A program made the position numbers and the translations under genes. Under the pieces are notes generated by a model that worked only from the letters and a program-made list of their open reading frames with translations, was not told the DNA's origin and did not search any database. From Escherichia coli (lineage in GTDB: Bacteria > Pseudomonadota > Gammaproteobacteria > Enterobacterales > Enterobacteriaceae), in the NCBI RefSeq assembly GCF_016026235.1, contig NZ_CP065613.1: a stretch of 64,000 bases of DNA. One strand, written 5' to 3'. Below are positions 62,619 to 64,000 of this stretch, piece by piece (within the stretch, counting starts at the first letter, position 1; the number at the start of each line of letters is the position of its first letter).

Positions 62619-63404
62619 TTATTCGTCTTCTGAATCAGGTGTAATGATCTTTACAGAACCATTCTGGCAGTGCGTAACATAATCTGCCGGTAACGGACGA
62701 TCGCTAATCAGAACGTCAAATGCAGAGATCGGTGCGAGGCTGGCAGAGGCCACTTCATCGAACAACGCGTGGCGGGCGAGCAAAATTTTCCGTAGTCCAC
62801 GGTTCATCGCTTTACGCTTAGTGGCAAGATCTTCAGGGTTAAACCAGCTGACGCCAAAGTGATTATGCACACCGCTGGCGGAAATAAATATTATTCGCGG
62901 ATTGAGAGAGTCTAATGGCGAAGAGTTACTGGCATCGTAAAAAGCATCACTTCTGGCACGATACGTACCACCACAAAGTATTGCTGTTACATTAGGCTTT
63001 TCATTCAACGCAACAAAGACGCGATGTGAATAACAGATGCCGGTGAAGGTGATTGCATCCGGGATCATGCTTATAACGAGTGGTATCTCCTGGCCATTAT
63101 CAAAGAAGATCAGATCATTTTCATTAACCATTCCGGCAGCCAGAATTGCAATAGGTAAGTCATCACGATGATTTTTTGGAACGTCATGGATTACTGGCAT
63201 GGATGGCGCGGGTTTATTCACCATTACAATATAGCCACCCAGTAGGGTCAGTGGCAGAGGTTCATCTTCCTGATGGAGATCGCGACGAATAGTCATTACA
63301 GAAACTTCCAGCATTCGCGCTGCGTCTTTCAAATGGATTCTGTCGGTTTTCTTAAGCAGTTCCATCAAACGTCGGATACGCTCTTTTTGCTTCGTTTCCA
63401 TCAA
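62619..63404 (-). CDS. DeoR-family transcriptional regulator (DeoQ-like)
   Basis: 261-aa ORF with N-terminal HTH (IHLKDAARMLEVSVMTIRRDLHQ) and DeoR-type C-terminal domain; divergent from the downstream kinase gene. Confidence 0.7.
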   Translation of the reverse strand: MMETKQKERIRRLMELLKKTDRIHLKDAARMLEVSVMTIRRDLHQEDEPLPLTLLGGYIVMVNKPAPSMPVIHDVPKNHRDDLPIAILAAGMVNENDLIFFDNGQEIPLVISMIPDAITFTGICYSHRVFVALNEKPNVTAILCGGTYRARSDAFYDASNSSPLDSLNPRIIFISASGVHNHFGVSWFNPEDLATKRKAMNRGLRKILLARHALFDEVASASLAPISAFDVLISDRPLPADYVTHCQNGSVKIITPDSEDE

Positions 63405-63706
63405 CTCTCTCTCCGTAAGAATGTTATAAAAATAACATTTTGGCGTTAGTAAACATTGTTTTCATTACCATACTATACGACCGCTCCTTTGAAATGAAAA
63501 GGGTATAGGCTGCTGAGTTTTGGGCACTAATCTTGTTAGGTTGCTTATGATTAGATAGTGTTGGCCTGAGTGATGAGACTGGAAGTCTATTAAATAAACA
63601 TCGGGTTGATGTGCTAATCGCGATCTCAGTCACAAATGATGCAAAAGTAACATGCTAATGTTATTTAAATACCATTGTTATGCGAAAGTTTATAAGAGGT
63701 AGTGAA

Positions 63707-64000
63707 ATGGACATTGCAGTTATTGGTTCCAATATGGTGGATCTCATTACTTACACTAATCAGATGCCTAAAGAAGGAGAAACTCTGGAAGCACCTGCCT
63801 TCAAAATCGGATGTGGTGGGAAAGGTGCTAATCAAGCGGTGGCGGCGGCTAAATTGAATTCAAAAGTCCTGATGCTGACTAAAGTAGGTGATGATATTTT
63901 TGCGGATAATACTATTCGTAATCTTGAATCATGGGGAATTAATACCACTTATGTTGAGAAGGTCCCCTGTACCAGCAGTGGTGTTGCACCGATCTTTGTT
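63707..64000 (+). CDS. Ribokinase/PfkB-family sugar kinase, DeoK-like (deoxyribokinase), 5' part only (window ends)
   Basis: MDIAVIGSNMVDLITYTNQMPKEGETLEAPAFKIGCGGKGANQAVAAAKL... carries the ribokinase N-terminal GG motif (compare RbsK ...GGKGANQAVAAGR...); ribosome-binding site agaggt 7 bp upstream. Confidence 0.7.
   Translation, partial: MDIAVIGSNMVDLITYTNQMPKEGETLEAPAFKIGCGGKGANQAVAAAKLNSKVLMLTKVGDDIFADNTIRNLESWGINTTYVEKVPCTSSGVAPIFV

What the first reader, a model, noticed from the sequence alone, without database searches (positions are those of the whole stretch)
62619..64000. Divergent DeoR-regulator / ribokinase-family kinase pair resembling the accessory deoQ-deoK deoxyribose module
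A DeoR-family regulator (minus strand) and a PfkB/ribokinase-family kinase (plus strand, cut by the window end) are divergently arranged around a 300-bp AT-rich control region. This matches the organisation of the deoQ-deoK(-deoP-deoX) deoxyribose utilisation operon described in Salmonella and in pathogenic E. coli islands and absent from K-12. If confirmed, it is a metabolic fitness island component.
Basis: partly seen in the sequence, partly recalled or inferred. Interest (0 to 1): 0.4.

Follow-up and report, generated by a model that had tools for sequence, protein, structure and literature searches.

The report
Known deoQ–deoK deoxyribose utilisation module

Summary
A 260-aa DeoR-family repressor gene (62619-63401, minus strand) and a PfkB kinase gene (from 63707, plus strand, cut after 98 codons) flank a 305-bp spacer of 36% GC.

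The interpretation also holds. The 98 visible kinase residues match Salmonella enterica DeoK exactly. The full-length E. coli protein is 96% identical to Salmonella deoxyribokinase and only 37% to K-12 RbsK. The regulator is 38% identical to K-12 DeoR and about 84% to Salmonella DeoQ.

E. coli genomes 99.7-99.9% identical over this stretch continue with a FucP-like permease (deoP) and a mutarotase-fold gene (deoX). Of 5426 complete E. coli genomes, 1595 carry this stretch and 1596 carry deoKPX.

The spacer holds three 16-bp TGTTA-N6-TAACA palindromes. Their positions are conserved across about 20 enterobacterial genera, and they have the same design as the K-12 DeoR operators.

Two additions:
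- RefSeq mislabels these genes rbsK and fucP.
- The island copy is bracketed by an ilvN 3' scar (inside the window) and a uhpA 5' scar. The ilvN scar is 91% identical to E. coli but only 75-78% to Salmonella. The genes are about 80% identical to Salmonella at DNA level. This argues against the cited recent transfer from Salmonella.

Already known; low interest.

The parts
62377..62618 (+). ilvN' scar: the last ~242 nt of an acetolactate synthase small-subunit gene, with a frameshift and a premature stop. It ends at its TAA directly against the deoQ stop codon. It is the left border of the captured chromosomal segment.
   Evidence: 90-91% identical to K-12 ilvN, against 75.5-77.6% to S. enterica and 82-84% to Citrobacter/Pseudocitrobacter ilvN. 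RefSeq marks it as a pseudogene in L001, L002, L084 and L085.
62619..63401 (-). deoQ: DeoR-family repressor of the deoxyribose module, 260 aa (261 if the TTG at 63404 is the start).
   Evidence: Pfam HTH_DeoR + DeoRC. The NCBIfam DeoR equivalog scores 230.6, below its cut-off of 244. It is 38% identical to K-12 DeoR and 84% to the Salmonella regulator in the same position. It is identical to WP_001393519.1 in L001 and differs by I170K from the common allele.
63402..63706 (.). Divergent control region, 305 bp, 36% GC.
   Evidence: The homologous Salmonella spacer is 324 bp.
63422..63437 (.). Candidate DeoQ operator next to deoQ: the perfect palindrome TGTTATAAAAATAACA.
   Evidence: Zero mismatches to TGTTA-N6-TAACA. 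A site with the same half-sites lies at the same place in about 20 genera while the central bases vary.
63637..63652 (.). Candidate DeoQ operator 2: TGATGCAAAAGTAACA.
   Evidence: Its position relative to the deoK ATG is conserved across genera.
63659..63674 (.). Candidate DeoQ operator 3: TGTTATTTAAATACCA, starting 22 bp after operator 2 starts. It overlaps the presumed -10/+1 of the deoK promoter.
63619..63634 (.). CRP-like site CGCGATCTCAGTCACA (8 of 10 consensus positions, right half perfect), inside the block AATCGCGATC-N5-TCACAAA (63615-63636), conserved in nearly all of the 22 sequences compared. Inferred, not shown.
   Evidence: Conservation. The assignment to CRP is my reading of the sequence.
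63654..63659 (+). Candidate -10 hexamer of the deoK promoter: GCTAAT here, GATAAT in most other genera. Inferred.
   Evidence: The consensus scan did not report it.
63472..63500 (-). Candidate deoQ promoter: TTTTCA, 17-nt spacer, TATAGT. Weak evidence.
   Evidence: The number of promoter-like sites in the region is no higher than in shuffled sequence.
63707..64000 (+). deoK 5' part: the first 98 of 306 codons of deoxyribokinase, cut by the window end. AAGAGG ribosome-binding site at 63694-63699.
   Evidence: Pfam PfkB. The 98 residues are identical to S. enterica DeoK. The GGKGANQ motif is kept, and Met10 stands where RbsK has Asn14.

Best explanation
This is the left half of the deoQ | deoK-deoP-deoX regulon for using 2-deoxy-D-ribose, carried on an E. 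coli genomic island. Proposed working, step by step:
- DeoP, an MFS proton symporter related to FucP, imports deoxyribose.
- DeoX, which has a galactose-mutarotase-like fold, probably speeds conversion between ring or anomeric forms so that the 5-OH becomes available. This step is inferred.
- DeoK uses ATP to make deoxyribose-5-phosphate.
- The core-genome aldolase DeoC splits that product into acetaldehyde and glyceraldehyde-3-phosphate.
- DeoQ, a paralogue of DeoR, represses deoKPX and its own gene. It binds three 16-bp TGTTA-N6-TAACA operators in the 305-bp spacer: one beside deoQ and two over the deoK promoter. Deoxyribose relieves the repression.
- A conserved CRP-like site about 40 bp upstream of the presumed start would place the operon under catabolite control.

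Shown experimentally elsewhere, in Salmonella and in other E. coli strains, and taken from papers or from my recollection of them: the kinase activity, the growth phenotype, the gut-colonisation advantage, and DeoQ binding to three sites. Shown here: orthology, gene order, prevalence, and operator conservation. Inferred here: the exact promoter elements, the CRP site, and the role of DeoX.
For: - Kinase orthology: 96% identical to Salmonella deoxyribokinase, with the window-encoded 98 aa identical.
- Gene order: ilvB-ilvN-[deoQ|deoKPX]-uhpA-uhpB in Salmonella, Citrobacter, Raoultella, Leclercia, Silvania and others.
- Downstream genes: deoP and deoX follow in every near-identical E. coli locus inspected.
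- Co-occurrence: 1595 genomes carry the window stretch and 1596 carry deoKPX, out of 5426.
- Operators: three conserved sites. Two of the only three hits with at most one mismatch in the 64-kb window fall inside these 305 bp. The same pattern finds the two K-12 deoCABD operators 599 bp apart.
- Literature: DeoK = STM3793 and phosphorylates ribose and deoxyribose. Salmonella degrades deoxyribose through deoQKPX. The E. coli deoK operon confers deoxyribose use and aids gut colonisation, and lies next to the vpe locus on islands; the related loci here show the same neighbour.
- DeoX: the model has a mutarotase-like fold.
Against: - The window ends at codon 98 of deoK, so the integrity of deoK, deoP and deoX in this particular genome is unverified. 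About 30 of the 1626 E. coli genomes with a match hold only part of deoKPX.
- The consensus promoter scan found nothing above chance.
- The primary papers on regulation (Christensen 2003) and on E. coli (Bernier-Febreau 2004) are not in the held library. The statement that DeoQ binds three sites, is induced by deoxyribose and is helped by DeoR and CRP rests on my memory of that abstract.
- This window's DeoQ carries Ile170 where the commonest allele has Lys. The effect is unknown.
Confidence: 0.93

Rival explanations
1. The pair is a ribose system: the kinase is a ribokinase (rbsK, as RefSeq labels it), controlled by a DeoR-type regulator and used for ribose rather than deoxyribose.
For: RefSeq/PGAP names the gene 'rbsK: ribokinase' in essentially every genome. 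The full-length protein passes the generic bacterial ribokinase model TIGR02152 (369 bits against a cut-off of 299.65). Salmonella DeoK does phosphorylate ribose and can support growth on it.
Against: It is only 37% identical to K-12 RbsK. It fails the enterobacterial RbsK model NF008353 (251.6 < 341). There is no rbsDACB/rbsR context. It is orthologous and syntenic with Salmonella deoK. The kcat/Km of DeoK for ribose is about 100-fold below that of RbsK. Met10 replaces the ribose-contacting Asn14 of RbsK (the role of Asn14 is described).
Confidence: 0.02
2. In this particular genome the module is a remnant. It is broken or truncated beyond the window by one of the many insertion sequences on this island, so the pair is present but gives no phenotype.
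For: The island is full of IS elements: IS2 at 60025-61355 lies only about 1 kb from deoQ, and IS66 or IS2 copies lie just after deoX in related genomes. About 30 of 1626 genomes hold only part of deoKPX. One record has an ISEc52 insertion within the matched ilvN'-deoQ-deoK stretch, apparently splitting deoQ, which is annotated there as two pieces (H17/H18).
Against: 1596 of 1626 genomes with a match hold at least 80% of deoKPX. deoQ, the spacer and the first 98 deoK codons are intact in the window and differ from a complete locus (L001) by two substitutions: one changes the deoQ stop codon TGA to TAA, the other lies in the spacer outside the operator sites.
Confidence: 0.04
3. It is a look-alike DeoR/PfkB pair for a different sugar, a paralogous module with changed specificity.
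For: DeoR-family regulators paired with PfkB kinases are common for many sugars. The specificity of DeoP and DeoX has never been determined biochemically (searches found no structure or paper).
Against: 95-97% amino-acid identity of DeoK, and 95-96% of DeoP, to the Salmonella and Citrobacter proteins in the same gene order. E. coli strains carrying this operon are reported to use deoxyribose.
Confidence: 0.01

Closest known systems
Salmonella enterica deoQKPX regulon (deoK = STM3793; Tourneux et al. 2000, Christensen et al. 2003)
   Same: The same four genes in the same order and orientation. Amino-acid identities are DeoK 95-96%, DeoP 96%, DeoQ 84% and DeoX 82%. Three operator-like palindromes and a nearly invariant ~85-bp block upstream of deoK.
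   Different: In Salmonella the regulon sits at its native place between complete ilvN and uhpA genes. Here it lies on an island with only scars of those genes. DNA identity is only 75.5-83.2%. The spacer is 305 bp against 324 bp, and the deoQ-side operator is a perfect palindrome.
deoK operon of E. coli genomic islands (PAI I-AL862, listed as 'PAI IIAL862' in the review read; strains 55989, CFT073, NCTC 86 ROD 40, the LAC PAI of LEE-negative STEC)
   Same: This is that operon. It is 98-100% identical in 1596 complete genomes and always comes with the ilvN' scar and usually with the vpe PTS locus downstream. The literature describes the same deoK/vpe pairing. The common DeoQ allele, one residue different from the window's, and DeoP fall under UniRef representatives Q67FX0_ECOLX and Q67FX6_ECOLX.
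   Different: Nothing material. In this window an IS2 copy lies 802 bp to the left of where it lies in strain RIVM_C036569, and DeoQ has Ile170 instead of Lys.
E. coli K-12 DeoR repressor and the deoCABD operators
   Same: DeoQ has the same two-domain build and is 38% identical. The operators share the design TGTTA-N6-TAACA; the K-12 sites are TGTTAGAATTCTAACA and TGTTAGAATACTAACA.
   Different: DeoQ scores below the DeoR equivalog cut-off (230.6 < 244). The sixth base of the half-site differs (T/C here, G in K-12). DeoQ controls uptake and phosphorylation of free deoxyribose, whereas DeoR controls nucleoside catabolism.
E. coli ribokinase RbsK (PDB 1RKD) and the rbs operon
   Same: PfkB fold, the GGKGANQ motif, and some ribose kinase activity.
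   Different: 37% identity, Met10 in place of Asn14, no rbsDACB/rbsR neighbours, and a regulator of the DeoR rather than the LacI family.

Membership tests
deoQKPX deoxyribose utilisation regulon | A PfkB kinase orthologous to the characterised Salmonella deoxyribokinase DeoK | tested here: met
   96% identical over 306 aa to S. enterica 'Deoxyribokinase' P0019. The 98 aa encoded in the window are identical to S. enterica L090 and L025.
deoQKPX deoxyribose utilisation regulon | A DeoR-family regulator (DeoQ) transcribed divergently from the kinase | tested here: met
   62619-63401 (-), with HTH_DeoR + DeoRC. It is 84% identical to the Salmonella protein in the same position.
deoQKPX deoxyribose utilisation regulon | deoP (MFS permease) and deoX directly downstream of deoK | tested here: met
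   Met by proxy only, because the window ends inside deoK. E. coli loci 99.7-99.9% identical over 62400-64000 (L001, L002) and two further E. coli loci (L084, L085) all continue deoK-deoP-deoX. 1595 genomes hold this stretch and 1596 hold deoKPX.
deoQKPX deoxyribose utilisation regulon | Three DeoQ operator sites in the deoQ-deoK spacer (as I recall from Christensen et al. 2003) | tested here: met
   Three TGTTA-N6-TAACA-type palindromes at 63422-37, 63637-52 and 63659-74, conserved in place across about 20 genera. Actual binding was not tested.
deoQKPX deoxyribose utilisation regulon | Native chromosomal place between ilvN and uhpA | tested here: not met
   Here the module is on an island next to IS2 and a TetR/DUF2254/BCCT gene block. 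Only a 242-nt ilvN scar and a uhpA 5' scar remain. This is the known E. coli island form rather than the Salmonella form.
deoQKPX deoxyribose utilisation regulon | Confers growth on 2-deoxy-D-ribose; the kinase prefers deoxyribose | not testable with these tools
   Reported for Salmonella and for E. coli strains carrying the operon.
Canonical ribokinase RbsK / rbs operon | High identity to E. coli RbsK and a pass on the enterobacterial RbsK model | tested here: not met
   37% identity. NF008353 scores 251.6 against a cut-off of 341, whereas K-12 RbsK scores 553.1. It does pass the generic TIGR02152 model, which explains the RefSeq name.
Canonical ribokinase RbsK / rbs operon | rbsDACB upstream and rbsR downstream | tested here: not met
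   The neighbours are deoQ, deoP and deoX. The K-12 rbs layout is shown.
DeoR proper (repressor of deoCABD) | Passes the NCBIfam DeoR equivalog NF007961 | tested here: not met
   230.6 bits against a cut-off of 244; 38% identity to K-12 DeoR.

The most novel reading that the evidence does not exclude
The E. coli deoQKPX copy was not picked up recently from Salmonella enterica, as a genome paper reports the original study to have proposed. It is a roughly 4.8-kb piece cut from the ilvN-uhpA locus of a bacterium in or close to the Escherichia lineage, and it has since spread within E. coli on an island. The K-12 ilvN-uhpA junction corresponds exactly to the same locus without the module. The donor lineage is not among the sequences searched here: one genome for each of 100,044 species, and a 5.8-billion-protein collection.
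Probability: 0.45. Interest if true: 0.3.

Novelty: already known. Interest (0 to 1): 0.12.

Why it matters
- Phenotype: the module lets E. coli use deoxyribose from degraded DNA, and papers report that it helps colonisation of the mouse gut. Recognising it marks this end of the window as part of a fitness island.
- Annotation: RefSeq calls these genes rbsK and fucP. A 2024 metabolic-model paper states that deoK and deoP cannot be told apart from rbsK and fucP at protein level. Three criteria from this work separate them cleanly and could correct metabolic models: identity to K-12 RbsK/FucP, the stricter NCBIfam models NF008353 and NF007524, and the deoQ/deoX neighbours.
- Origin: the evidence on the donor is a modest correction to the literature, not a discovery.

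Tried and rejected
- Primary papers: the three were not in the held library — Bernier-Febreau 2004 (PMC517565), Christensen 2003 (PMC225019) and Tourneux 2000 (PMC94358). Their content is cited from memory or through papers that quote them.
- Promoters and terminators: the consensus scan of 62300-64000 gave 4 promoter-like sites against 3.7 expected by chance and no useful terminator. It was not used as evidence beyond one weak deoQ promoter candidate.
- RNA families: the Rfam scan of 61300-64000 gave only a chance miRNA hit (E 0.21). There is no known RNA element in the spacer.
- tRNA genes: none in the window, so the insertion site of the island cannot be read from this window.
- Donor search: the nearest DeoQ outside E. 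coli/Shigella is 84-87% identical, and the best species-representative loci are about 80% identical in DNA. No donor was found.
- DeoX by sequence: no relative among solved structures, with either the single sequence or a profile, and no open paper on DeoX or its domain family's function. I could not map catalytic residues, so the mutarotase role stays an inference from fold.
- Canonical rbsK: considered and rejected.

Full report
**1. The observation**

A minus-strand ORF runs from 62619 to 63404. RefSeq starts the same gene at the ATG at 63401, giving 260 aa. It carries the DeoR helix-turn-helix domain and the DeoR C-terminal sensor domain (Pfam E 5.6e-9 and 1.2e-29).

On the plus strand an ATG at 63707, preceded by AAGAGG at 63694-63699, opens a reading frame. 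The frame runs off the window after 98 codons and matches the PfkB kinase family (E 4.8e-20).

The spacer between the two start codons is 305 bp with 36% GC. The neighbouring coding sequence has 42-50% GC.

**2. Identity of the two genes**

The kinase is not the ordinary ribokinase.
- The full-length protein, taken from an E. coli genome 99.7% identical over this stretch, is 37% identical to K-12 RbsK.
- It is 96% identical to a Salmonella enterica protein that UniRef names deoxyribokinase.
- The 98 residues encoded in the window are identical to those of S. enterica.
- Met10 stands where RbsK has Asn14. A paper on K-12 evolving to grow on deoxyribose describes Asn14 as a ribose-binding residue that mutated in those experiments.

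The regulator is 38% identical to K-12 DeoR. It scores just below NCBI's DeoR cut-off (230.6 against 244). It is 84% identical to the regulator in the same position in Salmonella.

**3. What lies beyond the window**

E. coli genomes 99.7-99.9% identical to 62400-64000 continue with three genes:
- the 306-aa kinase;
- a 438-aa MFS permease, 35% identical to K-12 FucP;
- a 337-aa DUF4432 protein.

This is the deoK-deoP-deoX order. Of 5426 complete E. coli genomes, 1595 hold at least 80% of 62400-64000 and 1596 hold at least 80% of deoKPX. The two halves therefore travel together almost without exception. The carriers include Nissle 1917.

A recent paper equates Salmonella DeoK with STM3793 and shows its kinase activity. 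Another states that Salmonella degrades deoxyribose through deoQKPX. Reviews and genome papers describe the E. coli deoK operon on genomic islands next to the vpe PTS locus, and report that it confers deoxyribose use and a colonisation advantage. The vpe-type PTS genes do follow deoX in the related loci.

**4. Control region**

The spacer contains three copies of a 16-bp palindrome of the form TGTTA-N6-TAACA:

| Position | Sequence | Note |
|---|---|---|
| 63422-63437 | TGTTATAAAAATAACA | perfect palindrome, beside deoQ |
| 63637-63652 | TGATGCAAAAGTAACA | upstream of deoK |
| 63659-63674 | TGTTATTTAAATACCA | upstream of deoK |

- Rarity: in the whole 64-kb window only three sites match the pattern with at most one mismatch, and two of them fall in these 305 bp.
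- Conservation: I extracted the homologous spacers from about 20 enterobacterial genera found in a scan of species-representative genomes. All three sites keep their half-sites and their distance from the start codons, while the central bases vary.
- Link to DeoR: the same pattern picks out exactly the two known DeoR operators upstream of K-12 deoC, 599 bp apart. DeoQ and DeoR therefore share their operator design.

This fits my recollection of Christensen et al. 2003: DeoQ binds three operator sites, and deoKPX is also repressed by DeoR and subject to catabolite repression. I could not read that paper.

A block upstream of deoK is nearly invariant across genera. It includes AATCGCGATC-N5-TCACAAA, which reads as a CRP-like site with a perfect right half (63619-63634). 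It also includes a -10-like GATAAT, which is GCTAAT here (63654-63659). These two assignments are inferences. The generic promoter scan found nothing above chance.

**5. Where the module comes from**

In Salmonella, Citrobacter, Raoultella, Leclercia, Silvania and others, the four genes sit between complete ilvN and uhpA genes. In K-12, ilvN and uhpA are adjacent.

The island copy is bracketed by two scars:
- On the left, the last 242 nt of ilvN (window 62377-62618) end at their TAA directly against deoQ.
- On the right, immediately after the deoX stop, come the ilvN-uhpA spacer and the first ~63 nt of uhpA.

The K-12 junction therefore looks exactly like the same locus without the module. Every E. 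coli copy inspected has the same scar and the same island neighbours. This points to a single capture event.

The ilvN scar is 90-91% identical to K-12 ilvN, 75.5-77.6% to S. enterica and 82-84% to Citrobacter-group ilvN. Of its 22 substitutions, 13 are at third codon positions. No E. coli lacking the module has a native ilvN more than 95% identical to the scar.

The four genes are 75.5-83.2% identical in DNA to S. enterica. That is the same divergence as K-12 ilvB, ilvN, uhpA and uhpB show against Salmonella (81-85%). The closest DeoQ outside E. coli/Shigella is only 84-87% identical.

Together these figures argue against a recent transfer from Salmonella, which the NCTC 86 genome paper reports as the view of the original study. 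They favour a donor nearer to Escherichia, which remains unidentified.

**6. Annotation pitfall**

RefSeq labels the kinase 'rbsK: ribokinase' and the permease 'fucP' in these genomes.
- DeoK passes the generic ribokinase model TIGR02152 (369 bits against a cut-off of 299.65) but fails the enterobacterial RbsK model (251.6 against 341).
- DeoP passes TIGR00885 (323 against 280) but fails NF007524 (284.5 against 427).
- No NCBIfam family matches DeoX.

**7. DeoX**

DeoX lies outside the window, so I looked at it only briefly. A model built from 16 orthologues has mean pLDDT 80 and pTM 0.83. Its best structural match is a putative aldose 1-epimerase (3ty1, E 3e-14, TM 0.73), followed by YphB and the GalM galactose mutarotases.

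There is no solved relative detectable by sequence, and no open paper on its function. A role in interconverting sugar ring or anomeric forms ahead of the kinase is a reasonable inference, but no more than that.

**8. Verdict**

Both the observation and the interpretation are correct. The feature is the already described deoQ-deoKPX module in its usual E. coli island setting. Interest is low. The points added here are the conserved operator layout, the annotation fix, and the evidence on the donor.

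Noticed in passing
window 62377-62618 (and L002 24981-25118, beyond the window): The module is bracketed by decaying scars of ilvN (3' end) and of the ilvN-uhpA spacer plus the uhpA 5' end. The ilvN scar is 91% identical to K-12 but only 75-78% to Salmonella. The K-12 ilvN-uhpA junction is the exact 'empty site'.
   Followed up: yes
window 60025-61355: An IS2 copy lies 802 bp to the left of where the same element lies in strain RIVM_C036569 (L002 18809-20139). The alignment blocks overlap by 5 bp at 62153-62157. This suggests independent insertions, or local movement, within the same 0.8-kb stretch upstream of the ilvN scar.
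   Followed up: partly
L001, L002, L084, L085 (RefSeq annotation of the homologous loci): RefSeq names deoK 'rbsK: ribokinase' and deoP 'fucP'. The generic NCBIfam models are passed and the stricter enterobacterial ones are failed, and no deoxyribokinase model turned up in the NCBIfam scan.
   Followed up: yes
L002 23970-24980 (deoX, beyond the window): DeoX has a galactose-mutarotase-like predicted fold and no characterised function. Its most conserved stretch (residues 86-117, with invariant C89, H93, C101, H108, H111 and C116) is the only part modelled with low confidence. This hints at a metal site or a mobile active-site loop.
   Followed up: partly
window 22829-47362: Core genes yjiG through gntP (22829-33206) are followed by IS1 copies (about 36212-36982 and 38019-38786) and the fec iron-citrate genes (38780-47362). 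The window differs from the closest complete genome by rearrangements here. The stretches 33207-36211 and 47363-48653 were not examined.
   Followed up: no
window 62893 (deoQ codon 170): This window's DeoQ has Ile170 where the commonest E. coli allele (WP_001295538.1) has Lys. The Ile allele is shared with strain IBS28. The effect is unknown.
   Followed up: partly
L070 (Bacillus methanolicus PB1), L068-L082 (Pasteurellaceae), L055 (Aeromonas): Close DeoK/DeoP/DeoX homologues (66-77% DeoK identity) also occur together outside the Enterobacterales. In B. methanolicus the order is deoP-deoX-deoK. The DeoQ-like regulator is weak (under 45% identity) in the Pasteurellaceae and was not found in Bacillus or Aeromonas.
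   Followed up: no
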